From Amoebophrya sp. A120 (Eukaryota > Protista > Dinoflagellata), in contig CAJINV010000001.1 of the NCBI GenBank assembly GCA_905178155.1, positions 12,759,136 through 12,823,135 on the forward strand: DNA of 64,000 nt, given 5' to 3'. A program made the position numbers and the translations under genes. Positions 8,594 through 44,900 of this stretch are shown here, piece by piece. The number at the start of each line of letters is the position of its first letter. The stretch's first letter is position 1. The notes under the pieces are model-generated. The model was not told where the DNA came from. It did not search any database and was given only the letters and a program-made list of their open reading frames with translations.

Positions 8594-11203
8594 CTACAAG
8601 TCGGTTGAAAACTTCATGCGTGCAATGATGCTATCCTCATCGTCGGCTTCGCTTTCGTTGTTCTTCGTCAGCTGGTTGGTGCTTGTGGTAGGGGCCCCAC
8701 TTATTGCGTCCTCGAAGGCCGCACTGAGTTTGATACCCTGCGCTTGGCGAACCCTGCGCCGACTCAAATCGCACCCACTGGTCCACTCAAAGCCAAGTGC
8801 CTCTGCCACTGCCAGGACTGTGCCGGAGCCGCAAAACGGGTCCACAACCCCATCGAAAGTGAAATTGTCTTTCACCCAAGAGAGCACTTGTTTCGTACAC
8901 TCCACACCCATGCACCGCGTGCGGTGCTTCAGCTGCGCGTCGGCCTTGCCTCCCTTGTGCAAAAACGCCGGCAGTACGTCGTGCGACCACGCCATTTGCT
9001 GTTCGTACACCTCGTTTGCGTTCTGGGCTTCTTTGGTTTTCTTGTTGCCTTTTTTATTGTTTTTCGTCTCCTCTTCACCACAACGAGCAGGTTTTGTCGT
9101 TGCATCCGCACTGCAAAGCGCACCAGTTCCAGAAGTAGATGTTGTGGAAACGTTTTTTCCGCTTCGATCAAAGAACTCAGCGATCAACAGGTCACTAGAT
9201 GCGGCACGTTTTAAGTCAAAGCAACTGCCCGATCCTCTTGTCCCAGTTCCAGAAGTGAAGGTGTCGTCGGGGCTATCTTCACTTTGAACAGCCGGAACTC
9301 GCCGGAACAGCATCTTTTTCACGTAGCCAGCTGGGTTCGACTTGTTCCCTAGTTTCGGAGAAGCGGTTGAAAATGCACAACTACTCGCCCCAATCGAAGA
9401 GTTCCCGGACCTCGGCTCCAGGACAACAGAGCCTGCAGCATTGCCCTCAACATCTTCGGACGAGGGAGAAGCGTAGCTTCTTGGGACAGCAGGAGCAGCT
9501 TCATCAAGAGTGTGTGCAGCTCCGTCTGCCGAACAGGATGATGAATCGTCGTGCCGCTCCGGTGTACTGTTTGGCGACGCAGTTGCAGCCACGGGAGAGG
9601 GCTGCAGGATGCTGTCACACGTTGAGTCCAAATCCTCCGCCGAGGTGAGTACCTCCTTCGGTGCAAGAATCTTTTTCGTAGGTGTGGTGCACGCGACAGC
9701 GATGGACTCTGCAGCATCGGTGGAGGATGAGGCGCCTTCAACATGATCTGAAGCCTCTTTTTTTTCATCCGTCATGCCTTTGTCTTCTAGTACTTCTTTT
9801 TTAACGTGATTGTTCATCTCTGTCTCCTTTTTATCGTTGTGATTTCCGGAAGCTGTCGTCGATGCCACACATGACGAGCTGTTTTGTTCCTCCTCTATTT
9901 TTGTCACTGGAGTGGGGCAGGATGCAGCTGCTTCCTTGCTGCATATTTCAGCCGTCTTCATCCCCTTTACAAAAACTTCATCCTCTCGACTATCGAGGCA
10001 GAAATCGCTTGCGGAGCAGCTGCTACTCGCCGAGCTTTTCGCATCGGAGTTGCGATCCGGATGGTGAAACAGTGTGACTTCGAGCAAGCAGTCGGCCGCG
10101 GCTGGAGAGGGCCTTTTTACGCTGTCCCGACTGCTTGGCTCCGCCAGCACGCGGCAGACCGCCGTTGGAGCCACGGGTTTCCCGTCAAATTGCCCGTGCG
10201 AGGCGAGCACCGACGAGCGAATGTGGATTTCCTGCTTCCGAGAGACGGTCGTGACCACCTTCAACACGTCCTTCCGGCGGATCTTGGCCCGGACGGAGTG
10301 CTGCAGCTTGCCGAGACCACAACCCAGTTTCTCCCAGGTGCCGCACAGCTCGTTCTTGAGCGACGGGCGCGGATTGCCCTTGCGCACGCACAGCAGGTGC
10401 GTGAACCCGGGCTTCTTCCCGTTACTATTGGGGACGTCGAACGCGTCCGCCGCAATCTTGTGCCACGCGAGCTTCAGGTGCAGCAGGTTCGCCTCCAGCC
10501 GCGTGTTGCCGACGGCCCGGTTCGCCTGGATTCGCTGCTCGTCGATGGCGACAAAGTCTTCCTCCAGCTCCCGCACTGCGTCCGTGACCAAACTCGCCTT
10601 GCTGACCTGCGTCTGAAAATCCGGCTTCACGTCCGTTTGGTAGAACACTGCCAGGGAGTCGGTGGGCAGAGCGCACAGGACCGCCTTCACCGCGTTTTTG
10701 AAGAAGAGCTTGTACACGAAAATCTTCAGCTCCTCGTCCTCCAACTGCAGGTCTTGGTCTTCCCCCACCATCTCGCAGATGTCCGGCAGGCTGGTAAAAA
10801 CGCACCAGCTGCCGCTCGGAAACGTTTGGGATACCCAGCTGTCCCGCGGCGTTAGTCCGGTCTGGCGCGAGGACCAGTCTGCGCTGGCAATGTGGTTGAG
10901 TTCCCGCCGGAACCCTTCCTTTACCATACTAGCCAGCCGCAGCTGCACTCGAACGCGTCTGACGGGGACACTACGGCTGGACGAAGCAGCTGCAGCGCAT
11001 GGCTGGTCGTTCTTCGTCTTGTTCCCACTGCTGCTGGTGGTGGTTGTCGTGGGCACATGCCATAAACTTTTTGCCTTTTCGGCAATCTTGGCCCACCGCC
11101 CGGCGAAAGACCCGATACCAAGCAATTCCAATGCGTCACCATGCTGCACAGTCCGGTACGGCCGCAGAGGGTCCTCCCCGGTGACGGAGGGCGATGAGGA
11201 CAT
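8594..11203 (-). CDS. SAM-dependent methyltransferase resembling the beta-class N4/N6 DNA methylase fold, split by a long low-complexity insert
   Basis: N-terminal VQHGDALELL, VFTSLPD (motif-IV position), FYQTDVK, LAWHKI, PGFTHLLC. C-terminal MGVE...VVDPFCGSGTVLAVAEALG...GCDLS (motif I). Confidence 0.75.
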   Translation of the reverse strand: MSSSPSVTGEDPLRPYRTVQHGDALELLGIGSFAGRWAKIAEKAKSLWHVPTTTTTSSSGNKTKNDQPCAAAASSSRSVPVRRVRVQLRLASMVKEGFRRELNHIASADWSSRQTGLTPRDSWVSQTFPSGSWCVFTSLPDICEMVGEDQDLQLEDEELKIFVYKLFFKNAVKAVLCALPTDSLAVFYQTDVKPDFQTQVSKASLVTDAVRELEEDFVAIDEQRIQANRAVGNTRLEANLLHLKLAWHKIAADAFDVPNSNGKKPGFTHLLCVRKGNPRPSLKNELCGTWEKLGCGLGKLQHSVRAKIRRKDVLKVVTTVSRKQEIHIRSSVLASHGQFDGKPVAPTAVCRVLAEPSSRDSVKRPSPAAADCLLEVTLFHHPDRNSDAKSSASSSCSASDFCLDSREDEVFVKGMKTAEICSKEAAASCPTPVTKIEEEQNSSSCVASTTASGNHNDKKETEMNNHVKKEVLEDKGMTDEKKEASDHVEGASSSTDAAESIAVACTTPTKKILAPKEVLTSAEDLDSTCDSILQPSPVAATASPNSTPERHDDSSSCSADGAAHTLDEAAPAVPRSYASPSSEDVEGNAAGSVVLEPRSGNSSIGASSCAFSTASPKLGNKSNPAGYVKKMLFRRVPAVQSEDSPDDTFTSGTGTRGSGSCFDLKRAASSDLLIAEFFDRSGKNVSTTSTSGTGALCSADATTKPARCGEEETKNNKKGNKKTKEAQNANEVYEQQMAWSHDVLPAFLHKGGKADAQLKHRTRCMGVECTKQVLSWVKDNFTFDGVVDPFCGSGTVLAVAEALGFEWTSGCDLSRRRVRQAQGIKLSAAFEDAISGAPTTSTNQLTKNNESEADDEDSIIARMKFSTDL

Positions 11204-12019
11204 TTGTCGTTCGAAAAAAATAGCGAAGTTGTAGCTGTAACTGTAAGGATTTTAGGTTCTAGCTGGCAGTACGTGTCGCAGTTCTTCCTCTCCTTGTGAC
11301 CTCAAGAGGCAGAAGAAGCGGAGGGCAGAAAAAAAGTTCAAACTCTTATGACTGATTTCAGACTCGGTCTTTCAATGTCGGTACTTGTACTCGAGTAGAA
11401 ACACAGCTCACAAAAAAAAAAACTTCGTCGATTTGGTGGAGCGCATCATACTCACTGTAAATTTCTAAGTCTTGATGACAGGTTGACTGTGGTCATTGTA
11501 TTCGTACGAAAAGAACATCGTCACTTCTTTACAAATGAAATCAGTCACTTCCTTCTCGCTGTGTGTCAATCATCTTGAGAAACATGCACTAAGAAAAGGC
11601 TGCTTAGAATGTCAACATGACGTGGCGCCGGAAGTTGAACATAATCATAAGGAAGCGGATGATCATGATCTTCATCTTTTTGAACTCGCTGCATCTATCT
11701 TGGATCGTTCGATCTTTCGACTAGTACCTTCATCTTTTTTCACTCATTGCCATGCGTACCTGCTGTTGATGTTGGCTTCTCCGTTTCAAAAAATGACGCG
11801 CGACTTCGAGCGCAAGTGTTGTTTCCAGAATCTGATTCTATATATGTGAAGTGATTCTTCTATCACTATCACTATCAAAAAAAGAAGAGACGAAACGAAG
11901 GGGGGGATCTTTCGGTTGAGCGGTTGAGAAGCTTCCTTCTTCTATTCCCATCACACATTTTATCTCAACATGTCTATCTGGCAGCGCGCTCTTCTCAACA
12001 TGACGTTCTGCATTTTCGT

Positions 12020-17125: not shown

Positions 17126-19582
17126 TCAGTGCACCTCCACCTCCAGGTCTACTGGACCGTTGCAAATAACACCGCTTCCGGAATTGTAATCTTCCGCAAT
17201 TCTAGTCGATATTCGTTTCATGCCGGCAATCGAGGCGAAGACGAAAAGCATGCCGCCAAAGAGGAAGACCACGCTGTGGAAGACAGAACGAGAGCACGAA
17301 CGAAAGCAGGCCGAACAGGTAGTCTCCCTTCTGCGTTTTGTTCCTGCCCGCAGGTGCTTCCCTCTCCCTTCATGCGTTTTCGATTCCACTTTTTCGTGCA
17401 GCGGGGCATGCTCTGTCCTTGCTGCATAATCGTCCGCGTGGAGTAGGGGCCGACAGTCCTCTGCTAAAGGAGCGTTCGCAAACGATGATCCACTGTGGTT
17501 GGTGGTCTTCAGGCCGTCATCATTTCTACCTAGTCCTGTAGTGACCTTGAAATCCGGCAGAATAAGCCGCACTGTCGTATCTTCTCTTCTTTTTGCGTCG
17601 CTAGTATCGGCCACGAGATTTTTCGAACGGTCTCCACCAGAACGAGGCGAAGAGTCGGGATCATCATCATCGTCCTTTGCGCTTGGCCGCCGATCAAGTG
17701 TTTCCGCTTCATCATTCGCAGTGCCCGTTTTCTCAGTTGATTGCTCCCCACTGTCAGGAGCCTCACGGTCGTGTGCACCAGCACTGCGTAATTTGTAGTA
17801 GGCGTAGAGCGGGATGATGAGCTCCGTGAGCGCAAGCGAGAGGCTAGTGACCAAGCCGGCTATTTCTACGATGTAAGGGACCACGAGGGAACAGAGCACG
17901 CGGCCGCAAATAGTGCTGATGCGAAAGCCGGCGTTCGCCCAGCGACTCGTCCGCAGGCAGTGGCACTGCTCCTCCGAGGACGTGAAGAAGTTGGTGACGT
18001 ACAGCAAATCGCAGGTGCTCATGCAGAACAGCACGAGCAGGTTCAAGCCGCGGGACACCCAGGTGGGATCCCCCATGCTCCAGGGCGCGTAGTACTCCGG
18101 GCCCCCGCCCGGCGCGGCCTTGTTCTGCGGCCACGCGCCCCGGAAGAGCTGTAGGGGGGTCAGTTCCGTCCGCACCCCGAAGCACTGCGCCGGGTCGGTC
18201 GCAGCGGCCCGCTGTGCGGCGTCGGTGGAAAAACCGAACACCATCAACCACCACTTGTCCGGGCGGTCGCGGCGAAAGGCGTTAGACACCACGTCCGGAA
18301 TGCTGTTGCCGCAGACGCGGTAGGAATAAAGCAAAATGCAGGAGAACACCGTTGCGACGATCAGCATGGCGGAGTAGTACGCGGTGCTGATTTGCGCCCG
18401 CACGGCCGGGCGACAGCGGCCGCGCAGCGTGGGGATCAGGGAGGCCGCCATGAACGCGTAGCTCTGCACCGCGCCCACCCGCAGGAATGTCAGCACGCCG
18501 TCCACGTTGCCAAAGGGGTGAAACCTCCACGTGTGCCACGCGGCGGCGAAGGCAGCGGTCGGGGAAGGGGGCGAAATCCCCGACTGAATTTCTATCTCTG
18601 TCGGTGTAATTTCCGGGCTCGCTTCATGTTCTTGTCGGGTAGATGAAGTTTTGGGCGAAGACAGGAACAGCCGTTCTTTTGCTTTTGGTGGATTTTTACT
18701 GATGTCAGACTCGTTCCTTTGCTCATCAGCAGCATTGAGAGCAGCAGTTGATGATGGATTAGTTGTTGTACTCGTCGAGTAGAAGTCCAAAATGCGGCTG
18801 TGTTCGTTGACCTCTTGCGTGTGCAGCTCGACGAGGATAATCAGGGTAATCATACCGAAGGCGTAGGGCACGAGCCCGGCCAGTTGCTTCGTCGTGAATT
18901 CGCGCACGTCGGCGCTGCAGAAGGCCTGGAAGAAGTGCAACGGCAGCAGAAAGGCGACCGACCAAAACGCACGGGCAGCGAACTCCGACAGCCGCAACTC
19001 GCTCTGCAGCTGCGGCACCAGTTGCAGAAGCGCGTTGCCGAGCACAATGTCGCCACAGATTTGCATGGTGAAATACCCGAAGAACGTCGCTCCGGTGGCA
19101 ATGCCCCGGACCACGGGTTGGTCTCGGAAGCAGAAATTTACGAACGCCGCATAGTTCGAAACGAAAGCTGGTTGATGGTGAAGTTGACTCTTGCGTTCTC
19201 CCACTTCATTCCGTTCTTGCGCTACGGAGGTGGCGCTGTCTTCGCGGAGGTGGCCGTCCACACCTGCGCTCGCTGTTAAGGGTTCGGCACCACCGATCTG
19301 CGCGTCATCGTGGTCCTTCGTCCCGTGAATACTACTGGTCTCCATTTTCTCCAGCAAGCCGCAGGCTCCTGCAACGAGCCGGGCGGATTCGGAGTTCAAT
19401 ACTGCAGTAAAAAACAGCAGGAATACCGCAGGCCACGGGCCAACTTCGCGGGCGGTCGAAGGCAAGGTGAGCACCGGAGTACCCAGGGCCGTCACCATGA
19501 TCGCAAAGACCAATCCCCAGAAGGAAAGCCGGTTTTCCGAGGACCGGTCTTTTTGTTCATCACTTTCCGACGAGAGAACCAT
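17126..19582 (-). CDS. Amino acid/auxin permease (AAAP, Aa_trans) family transporter
   Basis: LSFWGLVFAIMVTALGTPVLTLPSTAREVGPWP; SYAFMAASLIPTL; VPYIVEIAGLVTSL...IIPL; many TM helices. Probable ATG at 19582 (MVLSSES). Confidence 0.85.
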   Translation of the reverse strand: MVLSSESDEQKDRSSENRLSFWGLVFAIMVTALGTPVLTLPSTAREVGPWPAVFLLFFTAVLNSESARLVAGACGLLEKMETSSIHGTKDHDDAQIGGAEPLTASAGVDGHLREDSATSVAQERNEVGERKSQLHHQPAFVSNYAAFVNFCFRDQPVVRGIATGATFFGYFTMQICGDIVLGNALLQLVPQLQSELRLSEFAARAFWSVAFLLPLHFFQAFCSADVREFTTKQLAGLVPYAFGMITLIILVELHTQEVNEHSRILDFYSTSTTTNPSSTAALNAADEQRNESDISKNPPKAKERLFLSSPKTSSTRQEHEASPEITPTEIEIQSGISPPSPTAAFAAAWHTWRFHPFGNVDGVLTFLRVGAVQSYAFMAASLIPTLRGRCRPAVRAQISTAYYSAMLIVATVFSCILLYSYRVCGNSIPDVVSNAFRRDRPDKWWLMVFGFSTDAAQRAAATDPAQCFGVRTELTPLQLFRGAWPQNKAAPGGGPEYYAPWSMGDPTWVSRGLNLLVLFCMSTCDLLYVTNFFTSSEEQCHCLRTSRWANAGFRISTICGRVLCSLVVPYIVEIAGLVTSLSLALTELIIPLYAYYKLRSAGAHDREAPDSGEQSTEKTGTANDEAETLDRRPSAKDDDDDPDSSPRSGGDRSKNLVADTSDAKRREDTTVRLILPDFKVTTGLGRNDDGLKTTNHSGSSFANAPLAEDCRPLLHADDYAARTEHAPLHEKVESKTHEGRGKHLRAGTKRRRETTCSACFRSCSRSVFHSVVFLFGGMLFVFASIAGMKRISTRIAEDYNSGSGVICNGPVDLEVEVH

Positions 19583-20343
19583 GGTGGAAATTGAGGCCTT
19601 TGCCTGAAAGTGATAAAAGTAAAGGCACGGAGAGGATGGACACAAAAAAAAACAGATAAAACCGAGCGCAACAAAAAAATTGGCTCCGCCACAAAACAAA
19701 GCTTTCACGGTACAAATAAGTACCCCGCTCTTATTGCAGTTGTGGCATTTGCAAATTGATGGTCAGGAAACAATCTTCACGATTGAGACCTACAACGGTA
19801 AAAACCGTAACCGAGTGCAAAAAACCGACTACAGCGAGTGGCGTTGATACAAAAAAGAACGACAATACCACAAAGAACCGAAACCGAAAGTAATGCGAAA
19901 CTTCAGGAAGATCAGTTCCTTTGTGAGATCGAGATGTACTAGAAGAGGGAAAACCAATGTGAACAACGAGATGAGCTTACTCCTCATTTTTCCTACAGGC
20001 GTGTTTTTGTTTTCCAAGGGGTGCTGGTGCTTCTTCACGTAGATGTTTGTTTGTTTTCGTACGAAGATTTCTTGTCCATTTTCTTTGGAGCTGAAAAGTT
20101 CATAAGTCCAGATCTGCTACTTGCACGTAGTGAATGATACTGACATTTACAAATACACAACAAGTATATGCCTTTTCAAAAGCGATAGTTAAATATCTAT
20201 ACTTCACTTCACGATGATTGCGCTATGGATAAACACATTTCTAAGAAACTATGTTTGCGAATCAATAATATCAAACAACTTTTGCATCCTCTAGATCTAC
20301 GATATCGTGCTGGTCTACGCCTCACAATTTCAGTTCTTGGTGG

Positions 20344-21970
20344 TATAGAGATGAAATAGGTGATCTTCAGCGCTGTTCTTATCCCTAAAGAAATTCGCAG
20401 CATACCGTCGGGATTTGCCCTTTTTTTTTGCGCCAACGCAGGCGCTGCAGTTTTTATGGTCGCGCCTGCGTAGGAGTGCTGTTGCCTCCCCTGGTGGGTT
20501 TTTGCACGCGGCCCAGGCGTCGCTCTAGAGGAACCAACAGGCACGCCAACACCCCGACGAGCCTAGACATAGACTAAAGTGGCCCCCCCACTGCGCAGAT
20601 CGACGCGACCCACGGACACTCACAACACGCCCAACAGGCGCAGGCGGGCATCTTTTTCGCGGCCCCGGGCCCTGCGTACTCGCGACCCAAAAAGGGCCGC
20701 AAGCCGGCTCGTGCGGGCTTGGTACGCAGGCCCCTCGAGACCCCTTGGAACTCTTCAAACGAGCCTCATTCTCTCACCCACCGCCCCAATCACTGACCGC
20801 TGGCACCGCTTCCGCGGTGATGGTGGACGCACTGGCAGAAGACCCTGAAAGCTTCCCGCCGGGTGCTCGAATAAACATTTCGGGAAGATAGATAAGAACA
20901 CCTACTGCAACGACCTGGAGTTGATGTTTTGGCATGCAGCAGAGTTGGATTTTCTGCGCCGAATGTCCCCGCTCGCGAAAACTGCTGTTCTTATCCTCCA
21001 CGCCGTGCATAGATAAGAACATGTTTGTAACGACCTGAAACTGGTGTTTGGCACGAAGCAGCATTGGAGCTTCTGCGCCAAATGTTCCCGTTCTGGAAAA
21101 ATGCTGTTCTTATCCTCCACACCGTGCACAGATAAGAACACGTTTGTAACGACCTGAAAATGGTGTTCTTATCTATGCACGGAAAGGAGGGATAAGAACA
21201 GCACTTTTCGAGAACGGGAACATCTGGAGGAGAAGCTCCAACTCTGATTCGTCCAATCATCCTGCTTCGCCTTCAGTTCAGGTCGTTACAAACATGCTCT
21301 TATCTATGCACGGCGTGGAGGATAAGAACAGCAGAAAACGAGAACGGGAACACTCGCAGTGAAGCGCCGCCTTTGCTTCATCCCAAAACGCCGCAGCAGG
21401 TCTCTGCAGTAGTGTTGTTATCTATGCACGAGCGGGAGCGTGCGGAAGCGGAGCTGAGGCGCCATCTTTGCTTCGTGGTCCCATATGCATATTATTTTAT
21501 AGAGCCAGCGTCCCACCGGTCCTAATTTAGGACCGACGGCACGGCGCAGGCACCAAAGACAACACCGGAGGGGTCACCATCTGCTGCCTGACACAAAGAG
21601 AGACGGATGGGCGCGCACACTGCCACGGCCCGGCGCGACCGCCGGCGTTGCCCCAGCTTGGGGGGGCTGTTTGGGTGGCGCATCAGCGCGCGCCTAGGCG
21701 CGCGAACTTGGATGTAGTGGCCGGCGGTTATTCTGTCAGTGTGCAGCGCTTTCCGGGCGCATGAGCTGGGGCTGCGCTAAGCACGAAAGCGCGACCCTCT
21801 GGAGGATGCGCGGCGAAGGCTTTGGGTAGCCCTGGGCGGCGGCGCTTTTGTTGGCCTCAGGCACGCCAGGCCTCGCCTAGAATGAAAAAAAGCACACGAA
21901 TCGCGACGGTATGGCGCGATTTTTCTTAGGGATAAGAACACACGGGAAGATCACCTTTTTCATCTCTATA
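20344..21970. mobile_element. Non-autonomous TIR DNA element, 1627 bp, TAT...ATA termini, perfect 5-bp target-site duplication (TSD) GGTGG
   Basis: Left end tatagagatgaaataggtgatcttc..tgttcttatccctaa..cataccgtcg matches the reverse complement of the right end over about 75 bp. ggtgg flanks at 20339-20343 and 21971-21975. No convincing ORF. Confidence 0.92.
20870..21440. repeat. Head-to-head fold-back array of ~120-bp units carrying TGTTCTTATC-N16/17-GATAAGAACA palindromes
   Basis: Units start at 20891, 21012 and 21131 (partial), then repeat inverted from about 21164 to 21430. The centre of symmetry is near 21155. Confidence 0.9.
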
Positions 21971-23146
21971 GGTGGCCCTTTTTTTTTCAACAATGACTGC
22001 GATCTCCGCCCGAGATCGTGTACCTTTTTCTTCGCCGTCCCTTTCCGACTCATACGGAAGAGGCAACGAAACTAGACTTGACTAGCCGGGAAGGGGGTCG
22101 GTGTGTTAGAGGGGAGATCGCAATTCCTGACGTACTAAGAGCCTATGCTGTCTTGATGAGTCGAAGTTCGGCATCAGGAGTTGCAACGCCACATAGTGCA
22201 GCCCGCTACTATTTTTTCTCCGACTATGTCTATCTCTATGAATTCCTTTTGCTTGTATTAGATACATACTTAGATTCTTGGCCACCATCGGTTCAGCGGA
22301 GTGAGGTAACCTTCACACCATGTTTCTGCAAGTACAGAACGCATAGATTTTTCAACGACTTGCATACATAAAAATTTCCTTTATATCAAAGCGGAGCTCC
22401 TTCTCGGGGGCTTACTTCAAATCCTGTTCTTACATCCTGATATTCAGTTGCTTTGGCGAATCCTATCGAAACTGAAGGTGTACAGGAAGAGAACAACGGA
22501 GTGTAGTGTTTGTAGTATGAGACACCAAAATCCGAAACTCACCAGAGCGATCATTGGTGGGTTTCGGAATAATTTGGAATTTATTGAGCAGCAAAACAGA
22601 CGAAATACATAAAGTATTAGCACGTATCAAAACCTGGTTTAGAAATTCGTCCTCCCAAGTTTGATGATAATAAGGATATCAAAAATGTTCAAATTTCATG
22701 TCCTGTAGATACGATACAACTTGGACGTTGACGCCCTATGCATCAAGCTTGGCTGACTTCTGTGCGCTACTCTTTATATTCTAGTAGAATATGGATAGAA
22801 AACGGGTGGCTGGAGGTCCAAAATACTCATCAGCACTACTGTATAATGGACATCCAAGTAGCAAGCTGGCGGGCTGAAAGTGAAAGCAATTCGTTGCGCA
22901 CAACGCTAGCATTGGGGATGTTGAGACAATGCCAAGAAGTACGTGAGCCATCATCGATGGTTTTTCGCGGAGCGAAACGAGGTTTCCCGTCGCGCCACAT
23001 TAGCTAAATTCCGGTGGCAGTGATCGGGACTGCGCCATGTGTGCGCGTCTGGTTGCAGCTCAATACGGCGCAGCTTCGAGGAATGTTGCGGAAGAGTGTA
23101 TCGCATGGGTTCCAGTGGAGTTCTCTGGTGCGGCCGCCGCACTGTC

Positions 23147-26100
23147 CTACAAAAGCTGACCTTGATGATGGTGCGAAGAGTTGTTTGCTGGATGCTCCAT
23201 GTTCATTGGCCAATGGCTTTGTGTTTGCTGAATGCCGCCCTCGGCAATAAGCTGCATCAGTGCACCAGTAGAGGGCGTTAAAGTGTTGATACCCTGGTGT
23301 GGCAACACAGTCGCTGCCTGCTGGTTGTAGCCACTAGTACCGGGCACGATGTTCCCAGAAACACCCCCAAATAACGCTGCTTCCATCGGGTTCGGGAGGA
23401 GCTCGGAATACGCGCTCGCCGTAGCAGCGAAATGATGATCGTAAGAAGCAGTAGAAGTTCCGCCCTTCCCGTCTCGGGGATGAAGAGGAGGCGGTGGAGC
23501 AGCGCCTGCCGCAGGCCGCATCATCTCAAGCCCCCAAACGTTGAGTTGGGAATAGAGCGGATCGTCAGGAACTTTATTTGCGGAGACAGGGGGCTGCGCC
23601 GGGATGTTCAAGTGCTGGTAGCTGCTGGCGTCGGTTTTTGTCCTCTGCGTTGGTACAACACCGTGGCTGTGCCAGGCACCATCGTCCTGCGCTCCTTCCA
23701 ACGCCGATGGCACGGCCCGAATGCTGCCCGGCGGTGCAGGTACGGCTGGTGCACTTGCGGTACGCAATCCATAGTAGCTGTCGAGAGCCAACGAATGCGG
23801 GCGATGCATGCTTTGCGCCACCTCGAACATGGAAAAAGCAGGATGGTCAGCCGGCTTTATTTCACTCGGGGCGTAACCACTACGTTCGTTCATCTGTTGA
23901 AGGTACGAAGCTGTGGCTGCCACGCCACCATCCGTCGCTCCTTTTCTTGCTGCTGCGGGGGCAGACGTGCTGCTACGAGGTTCTATGGCTGGCGCTAACG
24001 CGTACGGCGCCGGAGCGCCCGTGTTGTACTCCTGCGAGCTAGAGACCTGGCTTCTACTGTAGTACGCGGCATCGAACCCGTTCAAGTCTTGAACATGCTG
24101 CTGGTAGCCCCACAACTGGCCTTGAGGGTTGCTGTTGTGAAACTTGGCACCCTTAGAATGTTTCCGGGCCGCAATATCCATCAGGTTGTAGGCACCTTTG
24201 TGCATTTTCCCATTTTGCGTACCACCTCCTCCTGCGAGATACTTGCCCTTGGCCTTGGATGCAAAAGCTTTGCCCCGTTGCAACGAGGAGCACTGGTGCT
24301 CGCCGCCGCGCAGATGATGTTGATTGATGTGCGATTCTTGCTGGTGCCACGATGCGGTGTAGAAATCGTTGTGCGCGGCGTTATGGGCATTGTTCTTCGC
24401 GAAAGTATTACCTTTGTTCATCTTGCCATTCTGAAGATTTTTCTGATGCGGAGCGTAGGCGCTACTGTTTTTGCCGTGGCCTTTCCCCGATTTCCAGTGC
24501 TCTAGCGGCCCTTGCTGCGCCTGCATCGACGTCGTGGCATGATTTCTTTCCCGGCCTGACACTGCCGTAGCTAGTGCTTCGCTACTATCCTGCCCTTCGA
24601 CGACGGCAGGAGGTGGAGGCGTTGGGACGCGGGGGTTGGTCGGATCTGTCGCACCATCAAGCCGTGCAGCAGCAGCAGCAGTTTTCACGGCAGGACCGTC
24701 CCCTCGCTCGTCCTCTCGTTGCGCCCCCTCCGTTGTTGACCCCACGACATGAAGCGCGGCGTCCGCACTCCCTCCTGTGTGGCTGCAGAGGGAGCTTATC
24801 GTGCTACTGTCGTCTATGTCTTCTTGCTCCAACGCCGGGGCTGCAGGCAAGGCTGGACCACCGGAACCATCTCTGCGGCAGCCGGCAGCTGCGGAGGAGC
24901 TGGCGTCGACAAAGGAATTATCGGAGTCAACATTTTTCATCGCGGACAGCGAGTTCCTTCCAATAGTCGTGCTGCCACGAGAAAAGCTCGGTGGGAAAAG
25001 GTTCTGGTACAAGTGCGGGACAACGGGTAACTGGAAGGTATCAGACGGACGCGGCCCAATTCGCGAAGTCTTCGTCGCAGATGATGAAGATCGAGCCCCG
25101 CCGGCAGGGGAGCTGGAAGGCGTTCGTGGGTCGGAGTCGACAGCGTAGTTCCTGCCTCCCGTGTTCTTACCGTCTGCAACAGGAGTTGTGCTGGCCACTT
25201 CATCCTGAGTCCGATCTGCTGCTGGAGATGTTGGAGATCCTTCGGCTAGATGAACGCCAGCGCTGAATTCATGATCCTGCACCACAACGCCGCCCTCGGC
25301 ACGAGCAGCACTGGCCGCCACAAGTGGTCCAGAGCAGGCCGGCCCGCCGAACAGGGGCCACAACTTATCGCGCATCTGCAGAGCCGCGGTGCACTCCTCA
25401 GGGAGAGGCTCGACCTCCGCGACCACCACTTTCCGCGCGAGAGACTCAAGGACTTTGTGACCTGCACAGTGCGTAGCGATGAAGTGCGTGGCTCATAAAT
25501 TGTTTTTCGTTTGTATTTGTTTTCACTTCAGTTGCCCTTGCCCGAAACGGGAGCTTGGGTTGTTCAAGGCGGTTTCTTTTTTCATATTTGTTCCAGTTCC
25601 AAAGCAAAAAACGAGGGGAAATGTTCATCGTAAAGCTGCAACACAAAAGATTCTTTCTTCTACCCATAGCCCACTTGCGGTCGAGGAAATCCTGCAGGGC
25701 GCTGTTGTAGGTGTTCAAGGAGTCGTGTATGTTCAGGAAATCGACCGGCACGAGGTCGTGGTAGGCGACGTATCCCTTGTGCACATTTGAGCGGTAGCTG
25801 AGGGACCCGAACTGTTTGGTGCGTTGCTTCAGCAGCTTGCGAAAACCCGCCACGTTGATCTCGAGGTAGTCCGTGAGCAGGTTCACCGCAGTGGTCAAAC
25901 TACCCGCCTCCGCGACGGTCTGGCCCAGTAGCATATCGTGCTCCCGCTTTTCGTCCGCGCCGCATTTGTCGCTCTCTGCAGCTACACAGTCGATCTGGTA
26001 TGTTCGTTTAGTTGTTCTTTTATAGCAACAGAAGTCAACAGAAGTGCTCGGTCGTTTTGAAGCAATTTTTGCAAGAAGCGGCACGACCCGCTTGTTTTGA

Positions 26101-27148
26101 GATTCAGTGCGATTTCTCCCTCGTGTCGTTGACGAGCTGGCGCTTTCAATGCTTTTACTAAAATTGGAAACACCGATACTGATCACATCTAAATTTGCAC
26201 CATTTTGTCAATGTCGTCCCTTTTGCAGTTGAACTTCTCCGCCAAATCCACCATCTTTTCTTCCGTCGGTGTATGCAAGGAAACAAGACAAAAGAAACGC
26301 TTTTTGCTGCCGTGCTGTCACTTGCGTCGATAACGCGTGTGTATTTTGTCTACGTCTAGGTTTTTTCACACCGACACCAGTCTTTTCGATTAAGGTCGTC
26401 CAGGTCGATGCGCAATTCTTTTTACAGATTATATATACAACATCTACCTTTACATCTCCGAGGGAAGCGCGAGGACCGAGGTGCTCACACGTCGCATACA
26501 AAAGCGCTGGTCTTTTCATCATTTTCTTACAGTACGAACCCGATTTGCGTGCCGCTGTGCTGGAGGTGGGCCATCCGTGTGGCGAAGAGGTGCAGCCGTT
26601 GGTGCACGTACTCACACAACTTAACAACATCGGACTCGACCATCTGAAAGAAGAAATCATCCTGGCTCTGCACCAAGTCCCGGCGGCCACGCTTGACCTG
26701 CTGCACCATGCGCTCTATCGACGTCTTCAGAAATTTGTGGTTCACATACGGCTGCGTATCGTGGCAAAATATTAAAGGAGTAGTGCCAGAAGACTGTTGC
26801 AAAGCGGAAACTTTTTGTTTCGGACTCGGAGGTCGAGGCGAAGGTAGAGTTCTGTTTTTTGCAATTCTCGAAGCAGGCATGCAACAAAATGATCGAATAC
26901 TATTCTCAGACTTGACTCCAAAAACGTTCTCATTTCATCTTCGGCCACTGTTATTTGGCGACGAGCCACATCGGCTGGCACTGCCGTCTATGCCTAGTCT
27001 CGACGATGAAAATATGAGCAGATTGGCAACCAGAAATTTTATTTGTCCTGATTGTGGCTTGACACTGAGACTGACCCGACGTTATTTTGCGGTGATACGC
27101 TTCCGGATTCCGATTCCGGTGTAGGGCCAACTTCTTCCCATATCGCAT
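23147..27148 (-). CDS. SPX-domain protein with long disordered C-terminal tail, about 5 exons
   Basis: MRYGKKL (SPX start), PYVNHKFLK, FFFQMVESDVVKL, LLTDYLEINVAGFRKLLKQRTK (SPX lysine-cluster region). Spliced in frame by GT-AG to the 23147-25429 ORF. Confidence 0.85.
26757..27097. mobile_element. Degenerate TAT...ATA introner forming SPX intron 1
   Basis: Ends tatcgtggcaaaata and rc tatcaccgcaaaata (12/15), with a gacccgac remnant of the family TIR. Removing element+5 nt gives in-frame ...NPEA-PYVNHK. Confidence 0.7.
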
Positions 27149-36360: not shown

Positions 36361-39300
36361 TTACTTTCTCGGAACGGGTCCGAGGAAGTCCTTTGTCAGA
36401 ACAGCGTGGCAGGCGTCGACTTCCTGCTGCTTACGGCTCGAGTTCCACCCGAGCTCTTCACCCATGATGTCAACCACACGGCCCACCGCTAAATGCGCGG
36501 CGTTGGAATTCACAAAGGCCAGCCTGTTTTAGTTTTTTCCTCGTGACGAGTCAATCTATCACAATAGTGGATAAATCGTAAGTATCATGATTGATGAAAA
36601 CCAAAACTCTGTTGTCATACTGACAAATTCAAAATCTGACGGAGACGGTGGGCGTGCGGTGAATGATTTTCTCTCCGATACAAAATTAAGATACTCTTCG
36701 ACGATAGAAAAGGAGAAGCAACAAGCGAACCCACGACAGAAGGACGTACGTTCGAAATGTTCGCTCACTTCTTCTTTGTCGAGTAGGGTGGGATTCGAGG
36801 AGCGAGGGACTTCACTTCGACAAATGCAAAATGAAATGTCCTGGTACGTAGCTGCGAGGCAAGCTGTCGACAAATGCAATAAATGAATACCTGGTTCTTC
36901 GTGCGAGAATGTCGGCAGCGGTGCATGCGTGTTCGGTTTGGACGGCGTAGCGCACCTCGCACTCGAGGAAGGGACAGTTCGGGCTGCTCGTCAGGAGGGG
37001 ATAGGAAGCGTAGTTTCCGTCTTCCGTCTTCCCGATCTTTGCTTTCTCGAGCGCCAGCACGTCCGCGGCCCGCGTTCCGTACGTGTTAACCTGAGAGACC
37101 GTAGAGCTATGATACATTCATCCGTCAATGCGGCGGAGCTGTCCCAAAAAAAAAAATCAACGCGCTAGTAAAGCTAACTCCGTCTGCTCTGATCATTTAT
37201 TTTTGATGCACGATAGAAAACACCGACCAACAATGAGGCGTAACAAGTTCGTGCGTACTAAGACCAGATCTTCTCTCTTAGTACAACGACAAAAATCGCC
37301 AAAAGCACTACCACTAGTACAACAGCTGAAGAAGTAAAAGAGCTGTTGTGTTGTAACCAGAAAAACCAATTCGAACCAGATGGGCAGCTTGGTCCGGTGG
37401 CAGGCGGAATTGGCGAGCGAGCGCCGCGTATCCACTACAAATATGTCTGGGTCTGGAACCATGCAGGCGGTTGTCACGTTAAACAGAAGTTGTGTCAACC
37501 AGACACAGACTTAGCGTCACCGACTTGCAGTTTCCCAGACCCAGACACATAATTTGCAATGCATATCGCGGAGAGCGTGGGCGTCCACCCCTGCGGAGCG
37601 AAATCCCCGTTTCGTCCGGCACCGAGCAGGGGCGTGTCCAGGGTGACGCAAGGGCCGGCCTTGGCCTGGAGCGCCTCGTCGGAGCGGAGCAACACCTTGT
37701 CCAAGGCGTCCTCCGCCATCTCGCGCCAGGTCGTCCACTTCCCGCCACTCACGAAGGTCACGTCGTTCTGCGCGTTATAGCTAACAGTGTGGTCCCGGGA
37801 CGCGTTGGTGGTGCTGGTGTCGTATGCATGGCAAAAGCATTGCGTCGCACGTAGTCGTGATTGCATCACAAACCACATTTATCTATCACAAGAAGAATGA
37901 AATTGAAATTGGTCATGCATTTTTAGGTGATAGATAAGGCGGCTCTGTCATGCAGTATTGCAATCACTGCGAGTGCAACACTTTTGCAATTCATAAGTCG
38001 TTCGGGTCCTTGGCGAGCGGCCGGGTCCCGTACCACGCGGACAAGACGTCCTCGCGCCGGGGATGCATGCTCGGCGCCAGGTACTTGCAGCTCTCTTTCA
38101 GCTATGCACTGCAAATATTATTCTGGGTCTCAGAGGACGGAGCGTGTCATGCGAAGTGGTCCCGATCGATGTGTTGCATGCATTCTCATGCGGCGTAGGC
38201 AGCACGAGTTTGAAGGCCTCGCAAAGTCTGTGATGCGTCTGGGTGCATTTTTCCAGACAGCCATGTGTGATCATGTGGTCGGCGACTCGCACGACAAGGC
38301 TTGCATTCTTCCAGACCCAAACATATTTTCCCTGGATATCAACAAGTATTCCACGTCGTCCTCGGGGACTGCTGGGTGCAGCTCCGGGTTCGACGTCTTC
38401 ACGTCGGTTGTACCGACGAGCGTGTGGCCCTGCCACGGGAGGTAGAACATGAAGCTGCCCCGGGAGGTCTGCATGTCGCACATGCCGAGGTCCCGCGGAC
38501 AGAAGTTCTCGGGGAGCACGATGTGTGTGCCGCCCGCGCCGGTCACGCAGGGCTGGAACTTCTTCGCCTCCTCGGGCGTCAGGCCCTCGGACAACTTGCG
38601 CACGTCGTCCGTAAACGGCCCGGCACAGTAAATAATCTTTTTAGCGCGGATCTGCACTTTCTTACCGCTCAACGCGTCCCGGCAGACGGCACCGCGCGCG
38701 TGGCCGTTCTTGTCGAAGACGATCTTCTCTACGACTGTGTAGTTCGTGACCGCGGCGCCCTTCAGCATGGCGGTGCACGCAATCGCGAGGTTCGTGCGGG
38801 CGTCGTTGTGTGCCCCCTCGTAAAAGACGCTGGTTTTTATGAGGGATGAATAACTTCACATTTCTTGACAAACAGAAAACACGCGCGACACAAGTGAGCG
38901 TACAATGCGTCTCTATCGTGTTGTAAAAAATGTTGTCAATAACAATAGTCAGAAACAGTTCAGCTGTGTGGCTATTTTGTTCCAAAGACATTGCTCCAAC
39001 TACTTACGTCGGTGAGGTGTTCTTCTAACTATCGCTCCACAGGGAGATACTAAATCACGAACCGAAAAGCAAAAGTCTATTGAAGTAAAGGATCTCATCG
39101 TTACTTTGCGTATTTGAGTCTCGGTGCGTCCATTTGCGGGAAAGCCTCCTGCAGCTTTCGCGGGAAGATCGTGTAGCTGCTGGGAGCGGCGAAATACCCG
39201 AGCGCGTCGTAGCCCTTGAAGAAGAAGCTGTAGAGCCCGCAGGCCGGCCCGATCGCCGCGGGCGGGTAGCCGAAGGGGGGCGGCCAGATGACCCAGTGCT

Positions 39301-40514
39301 TGATCGGTACGGCAACCGGGACCCAATAGGTCAGGTGGCTGTTCAGCTGCAGCATGTAGGAGCGCTCGCGGAAGTATGAAATGCAAATGTGTCTGGGTCT
39401 GGAAGATTCTAAACTTGTAATGCTGTCTCTGGATCCTAAAAAAATTTTTGTTGCATGACCAGCAAGAGAACTCCAGTTCGTGCTACGCGGAGCGGGCGTT
39501 TCTCATGCGGTAGAGGCATCACAAAGTCCTCTGAAAATCTGTGATGCTAGGGCATGCATCACAGATATCATGGGTCATTCAAAATATGCATGACAAGCCT
39601 GGCAATCTTTCAGACCCAGACATTTTTGCATTTGATAGGAAGCAGCCCAGCACCATGTTGAAGGTCGACGTGAATTCCGACACTGCGTCCGCCGGCGCCA
39701 AAAGACTCCCGGGCTGGAAGAGGGACACCAGCGCCTTGACCAGGTACCGGGATCCGGCCCAGAGGAGCTTCGTGCTCTTGGAACTCGTTCCGCTGGCGAA
39801 ATCCTCTTGTTCGACACAGGCGGTCGTCAAGCCACGGGTGGTGGCGTCGAGCGCCAGTCCCGCACCGGTGGCACCCCCGCCGACTACCAAAACATCAAAC
39901 TCCTCCGCGTCCAGCCGCGCCAGCATCTGCATAGAGGAAAACGGCAATAAATACGTCCTTGTTGTAGGCCAGCATCATCATAAGTAGGAAATGCATACGA
40001 AAACAGCAATTCAAGAATGAAAGCTACGTACCGCAAGTAAAGCTACACCCAAACGAGTAATCCTTGTCAATACCTCGTCCCGGGACGGAATTCGCTCCTC
40101 GATTACGGTTTTTCGCAGCTCCGCTGATTTCGCCAGCGCCTCTTCATTCTTGTACTTGCAATACAGCACGCCCGCTCCGACGCCGGCACCGATTCCAAAA
40201 ACTCCTTTCATGAACCGCGATCCGCGTGGGCGTTGCGTCGCTTGCACCGCAGCGGCTTCCGAGCTAAAAGCACGGAAGGAGCCTGCATTATTTGCGCCGG
40301 CTGGGAAGAAACGTGGATTTGTTATTGCGTTTGGTTCATACGCACCACAGAAATCAAGGACTGCACCGCTGCGCCCATGCCTACACTGGTCCCACTGACG
40401 TAACAATGGCTGATTTCGCACTCTTATGCTTGACAATCTTGTAGCACCACGTACAGCGACGGACCCACCTTGTCTTCCGGAAATGCTGTGTCGAAAAAAG
40501 ACCACTCGCGCCAT
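36361..40514 (-). CDS. GPD2: Mitochondrial-type FAD-dependent glycerol-3-phosphate dehydrogenase (GPD2/GlpD family), 9 exons
   Basis: FDVLVVGGGATGAG, DFASGTSSKSTKL, EGAHNDARTN, GTHIVLP, FYLPWQGHTLVGTTD, VLSAWYGTRPL, SRDH, GGKWTTWREMAED, HLVNTYGTRA, DILARRTRLAF. Exons about 40074-40514, 39643-39926, 39105-39374, 38342-38829, 38002-38100, 37571-37823, 37377-37428, 36891-37090, 36361-36523. The R-rich N-terminus looks like a presequence. Confidence 0.95.
37429..37565. mobile_element. TIR introner (137 nt) forming a non-canonical intron in G3PDH
   Basis: Ends tatccactacaaatatgtctgggtctgg and rc tatgcattgcaaattatgtgtctgggtctgg; flanks ccgcg/tcgcg. Removal gives TLSA-ALARQF; no GT-AG register restores the frame at this junction. 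Confidence 0.9.
37823..37995. mobile_element. TIR introner (173 nt) forming a non-canonical intron in G3PDH
   Basis: Ends tatgcatggcaaaagcattgc and rc tatgaattgcaaaagtgttgc (17/21); flanks tgtcg/agtcg. Removal gives KDPND-TSTTNASRDH. Confidence 0.9.
38103..38338. mobile_element. TIR introner (236 nt) forming a non-canonical intron in G3PDH
   Basis: Ends tatgcactgcaaatattattctgggtct and rc tatccagggaaaatatgtttgggtct; flanks tcagc/tcaac. Removal gives DDVEYL-LKESCKYL. Confidence 0.9.
39375..39637. mobile_element. TIR introner (263 nt) with perfect 5-bp TSD GGAAG, forming a non-canonical intron in G3PDH
   Basis: Ends tatgaaatgcaaatgtgtctgggtctggaagatt and rc tatcaaatgcaaaaatgtctgggtctgaaagatt (30/34); ggaag at 39370-39374 and 39638-39642. 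Removal gives VLGCF-RERSYM. Confidence 0.95.
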
Positions 40515-41905: not shown

Positions 41906-44900
41906 TTACTTTTCGCGAAGACTTGTGCCGGTGACCGTCATTTTGCGAAGCTCTTCTGTGCGCTCTCGCACTCTCTCGCGCATTTTTGCGACGCGGGGGC
42001 CGGGGTTGTTCTCGCTCTCTTCCTTGTCACGTGCTGCAGCCTCACGCCACGCGGAATCTACGTCAACACGTGTTTCGCCAGGGCGTTCTGGCGGGGCCAG
42101 GAGCTGGCTCGGGATGATGCGCCGTTGTTTTTCCTTGCTCGGGGACTGGCTCAGAAGTAAATTTTCCCAACCGAACATGATTTTGTAATACACGTATCCG
42201 GAGAATTCTCGCGCCCCTTCATTTGCTTGCCAGCCTGAAGGCCTGAACTCCTGTGCCTGATTTTCCCCACCAAAAAAATTTTTAGGGGAGGCGAAACACA
42301 TGAGCGCGAAACACGGATAGCGGCGGAGCATCTTTGCGCCACCCGCGGCGTCCTTGGTGGAGTCCGACAAAGAACAGGAGTTGTCGGGCTTCGCTGCTGG
42401 GACGCAGGCAAATTCCTGCAGGCATTTCCGAAGGCCGTCGTGTAGATGTAAAAGTGGCGCATTTCTTTCCTGTGCGAGCGCACAGGCGAATTTTCGGTTT
42501 TTTTGCAACAAGATTCTTACGACTTTCTCGGAATTGTCGCTGGGCTCCAGAAGTGCACCGCGAAGCTCTTCGATGTCGTTTTTCTCGATTATCGCCCTGT
42601 CCGTTGCGTCAAACCATATTCGTCTTTCTGTTTGGCGAAGCCGCTCGCGGTCCTTTTCGTGAACATTAACTAGATGTTGATCATGCCCGGGATCACTACA
42701 AACAGGATTATTCGCGGGGAACAAGACGCACTGGTTCTCAAGGTCTTGCTCGATCGCTTTAAGCTGCCCGTGCGCACCGTCCAGCGATGATGTGCTCTGC
42801 CGAGTATACGTTGCAAATGATTTAGGACCTGTGTCCCGACCAAAAAAAGAATGACGCGCGCGCTTCTCAAGGTGAGCGGTAAAGCCTCTCACATACTGTA
42901 TTGTAATTCTCAGTGGTAAATTATTCTGTAGTAGTGGTAAAACCACTCCTACACCCCCAGTGACGTTTCGCCGCCCGCTTTAGCAGCGCCCGGCCACCAG
43001 GGGGGAGTTTGCCGTTGGCGTCGCCTCTTGCCGCTGGCATTCAAGATCAAGCGCCATTACCTCCTCATCCATGGCACTAGACCTAATCTCCGACCAAAAA
43101 AAGAAATGCTGTACAGCCTATCAAGAGTTCACCACCAAAAATAAAGTATCGCGAACATGCTTGGGCCCCAACATATCCCGCATCTCGATACCCCACGGCC
43201 ACTTGCTTTGACGTTGTTCCACGGCGTAGCAGAGCGCATTCAGCAGGTGCAGATATCACATATGTATGACAACATATAAACTTCCACCAGGCCGTTATTT
43301 CGCCACAGCCAATTGCCATTGCGCTAAAAGGATGCAGCGTGGTTTTTTGGCAAAAAAGGCGGGCCCTAGAGGTGGAGGCCGGTTTGGCAAACGACTTTGA
43401 TCACTGGGCGCTGGCGCAGGCGGGCTGGGGCCGTCTAGGCTTCTGCCGCAGCGATTTTGACCTCCGCCACCCCATCCGCTACCACGACGAGCAACTGACC
43501 CTTTCTGGCCGGAGCCGGGTGCCGTGCCAGACATGACCACCAAGGGCCAGCTCACTTGAAGTGAGCAGGGCCGTTGCGCATTATTTTGGGTGATGTACTC
43601 CATCGCCCAAAATGGCAAACCCCAACAACCAACCCGGCCCTCTCTGGGAAGTGCAAAGCGCGCGGCACTTCTGACGCGGAAGTGACGCGCGTGCGACGTA
43701 GGTAGGAGGCGTCACGGGGCACACTTCTTGCATGCCTGGCGGGTGCATGGTGTTTCTATTAATTTGGCACTTATCACCAGAGCCGGCAGTCTATAGCGTG
43801 GAACGGCATAAAGCAATGGCATGACACGCCTCCAAGAGAAGGCCATCGAACACAGGTCCAATCCCTGGCGCTCGCGTTTGATACGCTGCACTGATAGACG
43901 CCCGTGCATCTATGATCTGCGGCCCATGGGTAATTTTGTAGAAAAAGGACCCAAGGTCTGCACGAGGGCCAGACTTTGCGCCCCCCACATCGTCTTCACT
44001 CTTCGGGAAATCGAAGTTCGCAGCGGAAGATAGGCAGGACTGGGAATGGCGGCCGCGTCCTTCTCGCAGTTCTGTGCCGCCATTCAGTGCAGACGTCGAC
44101 TCTGCGGCTCCTGCGGCTACTTGGCCGCCATCTGTTGCCTGGGGGCAGCCTTCGGCGGCAAGGCATTTGCGAAGCCGGGGCTGGTCTTTCACAAGCCAAT
44201 CATGATCAAGCAAAAATCCGCAGCTCTCCGGGTCCTGAAAAAGCGACACCAGTTTCTCCGAAGAGTCTAGGATTGCTTTCAGATCCGAATTCACTCTAAC
44301 AAGAGATAGCAGCTGTGCGTTGGAAGCCTCCCGAAGAGCTTCGCGTCGCGTCTTGAACGCTTGTCGGGGCGCATCGATGTCCGCAAAAGCAGAAAACACG
44401 GCACCTGAGTAGAGCTCGAGGTTCAACTCCGTGCCTTGCGCGCTGAGGTACTTCAACGGTTGTTCGAACTTGCGAGTAAAGAACTTATCGGGCGTGAGGC
44501 ACTGCCTGACTCCTTCATCTCCATTACCAGTCTGGTCGGCTTTTGATGCTTCCAAGCAGCGGGTCACATCAGGGTGTTCTCGTAGGAGACTTGCTAGTAC
44601 AGTGTCGGCGTTATCCAAGGATTCCAACCAGAGATGTCTGAAAAGTGGGAGCCCGGAGCGTTTTGCCTTTGTGCGCGCAAGCGCTTCAATTTGTTTCCAT
44701 ACCGGATCAACGCTTGTCCTCATATGCTCAATCCTTGCGATACGGTTTTCTGCCTCCGCCTCGCGCTGCCACTCTGCGTCGCTGGTGGGCTGTGTCCCCA
44801 TGACGAGGAGGCTCATAGTCGCTTTGAGCCGCGTGGCCCTCTCGCTTTTGGCATCTTCTCGCTGAATTTCCAAGCCATCCGCGATTTTCAAGTACAGGTA

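What the first reader, a model, noticed from the sequence alone, without database searches (positions are those of the whole stretch)
20339..21975. Intact 1.6-kb TIR element with the same TAT...ATA plus 5-bp TSD signature, outside coding sequence: a link between introners and a transposon lineage
Seen: about 75-bp TIRs starting TATAGAGATGAAA, a perfect GGTGG TSD, GC-rich arms and no transposase ORF. Terminal trinucleotide and TSD length match the intronic elements, but the TIR differs beyond the first bases, so it is a sister family. Known: Transib has 5-bp TSDs but CAC termini; Polintons have AG termini; LTR elements end TG..CA. I do not recognise a eukaryotic superfamily with TAT termini and 5-bp TSDs. 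Inference: an uncharacterised transposase mobilises both this element and the introners.
Basis: partly seen in the sequence, partly recalled or inferred. Interest (0 to 1): 0.85.

Follow-up and report, generated by a model that had tools for sequence, protein, structure and literature searches.

The report
Long transposon spliced from 3' UTR
This 1.6-kb repeated mobile element of the marine parasite Amoebophrya sits behind a gene's stop codon and is missing to the exact base from transcript assemblies, so it is likely one of this parasite's already described transposon introns rather than a separate lineage, and the enzyme that moves it is still unidentified.

Summary
In detail: 20344-21970 (1,627 bp), 84-86-bp TIRs, perfect GGTGG duplication, no transposase. 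The window is Amoebophrya sp. A120. The element is multi-copy: element depth is 11-31 times the flanks, and other copies have other flanks at the exact ends. It is not just a sister of the introners. In four RNA-type runs (two samples) it is absent together with one TSD copy, while DNA runs keep it. It lies 1,171 nt after the stop of the upstream minus-strand gene, so likely in a 3' UTR, not the transporter's 5' UTR. Its ends fit the published A120 motif TAT-N7-AAA, like four short spliced introners nearby. Length, TIR size and a weak F-box hit match family fam86 of Gozashti 2025 (1,619 bp, TIR 84, superfamily unknown); not confirmed by sequence. 5-bp TSD with TA ends is also in print (fam38, 'Ginger'). 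Added here: exact removal where no reading frame is at stake, and candidate transposase-binding dyads. Earlier notes of this scan already reported the cut register, a longer spliced element and hAT-like candidate mobilisers on other DNA; the last I could not test.

The parts
20339..20343 (+). left copy of the 5-bp target site duplication GGTGG
20344..20429 (+). left TIR, TAT-N7-AAA-W start; GATAAGAACA half-site on the minus strand at 20374-20383
20430..20885 (.). left GC-rich arm (64% GC); not an inverted homologue of the right arm (z about 0)
20886..21430 (.). central palindromic array of about 119-bp units with four TGTTCTTATC-N16/17-GATAAGAACA dyads (20986-21021, 21105-21140, 21164-21200, 21295-21330); candidate transposase-binding sites (inferred)
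21431..21884 (.). right GC-rich arm (65% GC)
21885..21970 (-). right TIR; GATAAGAACA half-site at 21931-21940; end at 21970 confirmed by other copies with other flanks
21971..21975 (+). right copy of the target site duplication GGTGG
20340..21971 (-). inferred intron, 1,632 nt, ends CT..AC on the minus strand if the cut is 1 base before and 4 after the element; the length is shown, the register within the TSD is inferred
23147..27148 (-). coding region of the host gene (annotated A120 protein P0121, 994 aa, no Pfam family); stop codon 23147-23149
20018..23146 (-). likely 3' UTR of the host gene, about 1,497 nt after removal of the element; strand inferred, since contigs give none
17126..19762 (-). 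amino-acid transporter ORF; its RNA-type contigs reach only 19802 (X3) and 19726 (X6) and none of the listed pieces joins the element
37429..37565 (-). comparison introner I1 in the glycerol-3-phosphate dehydrogenase gene, 137 bp, skip 142
37823..37995 (-). comparison introner I2, 173 bp, skip 178
38103..38338 (-). comparison introner I3, 236 bp, skip 241
39375..39637 (-). comparison introner I4, 263 bp, skip 268

Best explanation
This is a multi-copy, non-coding TIR element with a 5-bp target duplication that is absent to the base from transcript assemblies, so it is likely a non-autonomous cut-and-paste transposon that also works as a long introner, here likely in the 3' UTR of the upstream gene. 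DNA step (inferred): a transposase made elsewhere binds the TAT-N7-AAA ends, and probably the GATAAGAACA sites, and inserts the element with a 5-bp staggered cut. RNA step: removal of the element plus one TSD copy is shown at contig level; predicted pairing of the TIRs brings the ends together across 1.6 kb; a relaxed spliceosome likely cuts one base before and four bases after the element, reading TAT as positions +2 to +4 of the donor (local canonical introns start GTAY) and the A of the terminal ATA as the A at -7. For the mobiliser I put a divergent hAT-like enzyme at about 0.5, an integrase-like (Ginger/IS3EU-like) enzyme at about 0.3 and something else at 0.2; none was tested here.
For: Repeat: in DNA-like run X1 the flanks lie on 38-kb and 15.5-kb contigs at depth 42.9 and 42.7 that stop 29-30 bases inside the element; element bins are at 490-1343; single 228-235-nt contigs have depth 437-449; contigs leave the stretch at 21970, 20340 and 20345 with other flanks. 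A contig of estuary metagenome X9 carries the left TIR with 52 letters of another flank. Removal: joint 20338 to 21971 (skip 1,632) in 4 of 4 RNA-type contig runs laid (X3, X6, X4, X5; two samples; X5 has only 25 letters on the short side), in 0 of 3 DNA-type runs (X1, X7, X9); X7 bridges the left junction (20056-20413). X4 and X5 are RNA: they skip 8 listed GT-AG introns of minus-strand genes. The joined contig of X4 runs without a difference from 20019 to 24278, into the coding region of P0121, whose stop is at 23147. Same class: 5 of 5 TAT-N7-AAA/TSD pairs of the window are skipped as element plus 5. Diverged TSD bases of three introners limit a shared cut to 1-3 bases before TAT; only the 1/4 register gives +2T, +3A, +4Y and -7A in 5 of 5, as in 8/8, 7/8, 7/8 and 6/8 local canonical introns. 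TIR pairing probability averages 0.92 over the first 25 pairs. Literature: TAT-N7-AAA motif (PMC7789003 section 11); fam86 row, 1,619 bp, TIR 84, 4 intronic copies, F-box hits (PMC12130899 supplement file 8), and I find a weak F-box hit too.
Against: All RNA evidence is from assembled contigs: no strand, no read-level splicing efficiency, rare forms dropped. The only raw-read RNA run laid (X10) did not map (1 read). RNA and DNA runs are from different samples, so an empty allele is not formally excluded. The skipped part can be read GT..AG on the plus strand. TIR folding is strong on both strands (0.92 and 0.94), so it does not tell the strand, and I3 is spliced although its predicted end pairing is weak (0.13). 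The fam86 match is by length, TIR size and a spurious domain hit, not by sequence, and its automated TSD call was 4. No transposase was found or tested. Summed contig depth is only a rough guide to copy number.
Confidence: 0.8

Rival explanations
1. The element is an insertion polymorphism: the cultures behind the RNA-type runs lack it in their DNA, so the join is an empty site, not a splice.
For: Element plus one TSD is exactly what an empty site looks like; RNA-type runs come from other samples and another study than the DNA-type runs; about ten copies look identical over 230 nt, so the family may have moved recently.
Against: No listed difference between the joined RNA contigs and the window over 2.3-2.6 kb; no empty form in X1 or X7; four other elements with the same ends are skipped in the same way in the same runs, inside a coding region whose annotated protein spans them.
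Confidence: 0.07
2. The join comes from ordinary GT-AG splicing of an antisense (plus-strand) RNA that happens to use the TSD and the element end.
For: At cut +1 the skipped part reads GT..AG on the plus strand, with a pyrimidine-rich stretch before the AG; such a reading on one given strand is expected by chance in only about 4% of sites (my arithmetic over the six registers).
Against: That reading fails +3A, +4Y, -3C and -7A, which hold in 7/8, 7/8, 8/8 and 6/8 local canonical introns; it lies outside the 1-3 register allowed by the other introners; the contig is continuous with a minus-strand coding region, and all 8 listed canonical joints in 20 kb belong to minus-strand genes.
Confidence: 0.08
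3. On the mobiliser: an integrase-like transposase (Ginger/IS3EU/GingerRoot-like), not a hAT-like one, moves this family.
For: Gozashti 2025 class A120 fam38 as 'Ginger', '5-bp TSD, TA/TA Termini', with ORFs similar to Copia/Gypsy; IS3EU always has TA..TA ends, TAYGG..CCRTA in fungi; TATAG does not fit the hAT terminal motif YARNG.
Against: IS3EU and GingerRoot usually make 6-bp TSDs; Ginger1/2 ends are TGTNR; the fam38 authors say it has no homology to known Gingers; this element has no integrase remnant; unreviewed notes of this scan report hAT-like ORFs in several long TAT/5-bp elements of this genome, not tested by me.
Confidence: 0.3

Closest known systems
Amoebophrya sp. A120 introner elements (Farhat et al. 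2021, PMC7789003; read sections 10, 11, 12 whole, passages of 16, 17, 32, 34, and one supplement search)
   Same: Same genome; TIR starting TAT, seven variable bases, then AAA; short direct repeat at the borders; hairpin; non-canonical removal; no transposase inside.
   Different: 1,627 bp against a mean of 240 nt; that study analysed only introns of 40-1000 bp; this copy lies outside coding sequence; TIR 84-86 bp against 8-20 nt motifs.
A120 introner family fam86 (Gozashti et al. 2025, PMC12130899, supplement file 8 row 598; all 58 A120 rows seen)
   Same: 1,619 bp, TIR 84, internal repeats, 'TIR DNA, Unknown', weak F-box hits, 4 copies as annotated introns; the only one of 58 rows with a TIR element of this length.
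   Different: Identity not checked by sequence (consensus is on GitHub, not in the supplements searched); automated TSD rather than 5; length differs by 8 bp. I put identity at about 0.8.
A120 family fam38, Ginger-like (same paper, section 6 and row 580)
   Same: 5-bp TSD, TA/TA termini, TIRs, intron-forming.
   Different: 808 bp, TIR 49-53, ORFs similar to Copia/Gypsy; none here.
hAT5 group of hAT transposons (as cited in PMC12730594, passages)
   Same: 5-bp TSD; ends begin with YA; repeated internal motifs recall hAT subterminal binding sites (recalled, not from a call).
   Different: TATAG fails the R of YARNG (PMC3014272 passage); no hAT ORF here; hAT5 lies in an animal lineage.
IS3EU/GingerRoot (PMC10045372, PMC12730594, passages)
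   Same: TA..TA or TAY..RTA ends, TIRs longer than 30 bp.
   Different: TSD usually 6 bp; TAYGG not met; no transposase here.

Membership tests
Amoebophrya A120 introner elements | Host genome is A120 | tested here: met
   two window proteins 100% identical to annotated A120 proteins
Amoebophrya A120 introner elements | Inverted repeat starting TAT-N7-AAA | tested here: met
   both ends; motif
Amoebophrya A120 introner elements | 3-5-nt direct repeat at the borders | tested here: met
   GGTGG twice
Amoebophrya A120 introner elements | Repeated in the genome | tested here: met
   depth 11-31 times the flanks, other flanks at the ends
Amoebophrya A120 introner elements | Removed from RNA | tested here: met
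   joint in 4 of 4 RNA-type contig runs, 0 of 3 DNA-type runs; contig level only
Amoebophrya A120 introner elements | Non-GT-AG splice sites | tested here: inconclusive
   no GT-AG register on the minus strand, one on the plus strand; strand inferred
A120 fam86 | Length about 1.62 kb, TIR 84, internal repeats | tested here: met
A120 fam86 | Sequence identity to the consensus | not testable with these tools
   TIR 13-mer not found in 14 supplement files; consensus held on GitHub
hAT5 | 5-bp TSD | tested here: met
hAT5 | hAT terminal motif YARNG | tested here: not met
   TATAG; motif (given there for 8-bp hAT families; hAT5 ends not looked up)
hAT5 | hAT transposase in an autonomous relative | not testable with these tools
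   no genome held
IS3EU/GingerRoot | TA..TA termini | tested here: met
IS3EU/GingerRoot | 6-bp TSD | tested here: not met
   5 bp; the sixth base differs (TGGTGG against GGTGGC)
Ginger1/Ginger2 | TGTNR termini | tested here: not met
Transib/CMCT | CA..TG termini | tested here: not met

The most novel reading that the evidence does not exclude
The TAT-N7-AAA ends are a portable, frame-independent, length-tolerant splice signal carried by a whole unnamed clade of cut-and-paste transposons: any member, even 1.6 kb long and in a UTR, is cut out exactly, so insertions into transcripts are nearly free for the host. This family, with about ten near-identical copies and a defined binding motif, is an active substrate of a divergent transposase that fits no named superfamily and drives intron gain in Amoebophrya.
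Probability: 0.3. Interest if true: 0.7.

Novelty: already known. Interest (0 to 1): 0.3.

Why it matters
The class is published and this family is probably catalogued, so the finding is not a discovery. It adds one clean data point to an open question: exact removal of a 1.6-kb introner from a likely 3' UTR cannot be explained by selection for an intact reading frame, so precision would be a property of the ends and the splicing machinery. The element is also a practical handle: a UTR junction assay for splicing, and a repeated 10-bp motif in dyads with which to look for and test the missing transposase.

Tried and rejected
No whole genome is held, so genome-wide BLAST, a TSD tally and a search for long relatives were not possible. 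Exact TIR pattern: 0 matches in JGI metagenome contigs and viral contigs; a short-introner TIR pattern: 0 in metagenome contigs. No Rfam match in 19900-23200 at E<=0.1. X9 did not cover the junction flanks, so an empty site in a wild strain is untested. The idea that the whole element is a decayed foldback was not supported: arms align no better than shuffles (z -0.08). The perfect 25-bp inverted pair 20982-21334 is part of the repeat array, not taken as a nested element. No long ORF crosses the joined site: longest open stretch 84 codons. A-richness after the contig end at 20018-20026 as a sign of a poly(A) site was inconclusive (11-12 A in 25; 4-14 at five control ends). No other copy in the window and no look-alike among earlier findings by sequence or nearby. 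Roy et al. 2023 (Curr Biol) is not held and may bear on novelty; figures of Farhat 2021 (S19-S25) were seen as legends only. A search for introner + UTR + spliced + MITE listed 2 papers; 'UTR' does not occur in the main text of PMC12130899. PMC3517528 and PMC11282704 (passages) added nothing decisive.

Full report
Observation. The element runs from 20344 to 21970 between two perfect GGTGG copies. Its TIRs are 84-86 nt and about 80% complementary. It is the strongest TIR-plus-5-bp-TSD pair in the window. Inside are two GC-rich arms of about 455 bp (64-65% GC) and a central 545-bp palindromic array of about 119-bp units. The motif GATAAGAACA occurs 12 times with at most one mismatch in the element, against 7 times in the other 62,373 bases; one copy lies in each TIR pointing outward and eight form four inverted dyads. 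No transposase domain was found in 23 of 32 frames scanned.

Organism. An exon of the glycerol-3-phosphate dehydrogenase gene and the ORF at 23147-25492 are 100% identical to proteins annotated in Amoebophrya sp. A120. No whole genome was available, so I used sequencing runs.

It is a repeat with these exact ends. In DNA-like run X1 the flanks lie on long contigs at depth 43 that stop just inside the element, and depth over the element is 490-1343. Single contigs of 228-235 nt have depth 437-449, about ten times the flanks, and differ from the window copy by 6-7%. Contigs leave the stretch at 21970 and near 20344 with other flanks. The tool warns that summed depth is no copy number; 10-25 related copies is a rough reading, and since contigs drop rare variants I draw no age from the differences. 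An estuary metagenome of another study holds the left TIR with another flank at low depth.

It is removed from RNA. Four RNA-type runs from two samples hold a contig that joins 20338 to 21971, skipping 1,632 nt, the element plus one TSD copy, with no listed difference on either side; three DNA-type runs do not, and X7 bridges the filled left junction. X4 and X5 are shown to be RNA by 8 listed skipped GT-AG introns of minus-strand genes (5 further joints were not shown). The joined contig reaches 24278, inside the coding region of P0121, whose stop codon is at 23147-23149, so the element is 1,171 nt behind the stop, likely in a 3' UTR of about 1.5 kb. The transporter's RNA contigs end at 19802 or before. 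The strand is inferred; contigs give none.

It is the same class as the short introners. A scan for TAT-N7-AAA ends with a TSD of at least 4/5 returns exactly five pairs (null mean 0.11, maximum 1 in 200 shuffles): the element and four 137-263-bp inserts in the dehydrogenase gene. All five are skipped as element plus 5. All ten ends read TAT-N7-AAA-W; beyond position 14 the element matches the introners at only 1-5 of 11 bases, so it is a separate family with a shared end code. Farhat et al. describe exactly this motif for A120 (PMC7789003 section 11).

How it likely works. Diverged TSD bases in three introners allow a common cut only 1-3 bases before TAT. Only the cut one base before and four after gives +2T, +3A, +4Y and -7A in 5 of 5 elements, the pattern of the local canonical introns (I looked at these positions after reading earlier notes). 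Published donor counts for large A120 families are also dominated by NT dinucleotides (fam2: GT 2611, CT 1800, AT 1526, TT 744 of 9716). The TIRs are predicted to pair (mean probability 0.92). I therefore infer a relaxed spliceosome guided by the ends. Against a strict hairpin requirement, introner I3 is skipped although its predicted end pairing is weak (0.13). The plus-strand GT..AG reading of the same joint is a real rival but fits the local consensus poorly. An empty allele in the RNA cultures is not formally excluded.

Comparison with what is known. Of the 58 A120 families in the supplement of Gozashti et al. 2025, fam86 is a 1,619-bp TIR element with an 84-bp TIR, internal repeats, weak F-box hits and four intronic copies, superfamily unknown. 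My scan also gives a weak F-box hit from the repeat array (E 0.041). I could not compare sequences and put identity at about 0.8. The same table lists fam38 as 'Ginger', '5-bp TSD, TA/TA Termini', which the text says lacks Ginger homology and termini. hAT5 makes 5-bp TSDs but TATAG fails YARNG; IS3EU has TA..TA ends but usually 6-bp TSDs; Ginger ends are TGTNR. So the element works like a non-autonomous cut-and-paste transposon and is a member of the A120 introner class, but I file it under no named superfamily. Farhat et al. found no transposase in A120. Unreviewed notes of this scan report long TAT/5-bp elements with divergent hAT-like ORFs elsewhere in this genome; they moved my odds from integrase-like toward hAT-like, but I could not test them and they are not evidence here.

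Verdict. Real, well supported, mostly known. What is added is exact removal of a long element where no reading frame needs saving, and a candidate binding motif. Interest 0.3.

Noticed in passing
window 20888-21425: The central palindrome is centred at element position 813.5 of 1,627, almost exactly the middle, and the two arms have equal length, yet the arms are not inverted homologues. Unexplained.
   Followed up: partly
window 21248-21257 (loose ends in X3 and X4): RNA-type contigs follow the repeat array and then run on for 255 or more unlike letters; the X4 loose end overlaps an X1 loose end that abuts a TIR at 20340. This hints at longer transcribed relatives or nested copies at another locus, a lead to an autonomous partner.
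   Followed up: no
window 21936-21970 (X3, X4, X5): An RNA-type contig carries the last 35 bases of the right TIR with overlapping loose letters on both sides, as if from a tandem or circular unit of about 76 nt; summed depth there reaches 189 in X5.
   Followed up: no
window 20682-21047 (X1): One contig at single-copy depth skips 364 nt: an internally deleted copy of the family elsewhere.
   Followed up: no
window 39375-39637: Introner I4 belongs to a very high-copy family (bin depth 18,375 in X7 against 0-4.5 in non-repeat bins; 230 in the estuary metagenome X9).
   Followed up: partly
window 41906-57908, minus strand: Tandem long ORFs with no Pfam family; some share repeated segments (44126-44274 with 46274-46419); likely a lineage-specific gene family.
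   Followed up: no
window 25446-27148, minus strand: The N-terminal exons of the host protein P0121 look SPX-like to my eye (recalled motif); Pfam found nothing at E<=0.1.
   Followed up: partly
window 53345-53576: Perfect 116-bp tandem duplication; recent duplication or assembly artefact.
   Followed up: no
window 8594-11251, minus strand: 885-aa ORF with a C-terminal N6/N4 DNA methylase domain just above the Pfam cut-off.
   Followed up: no
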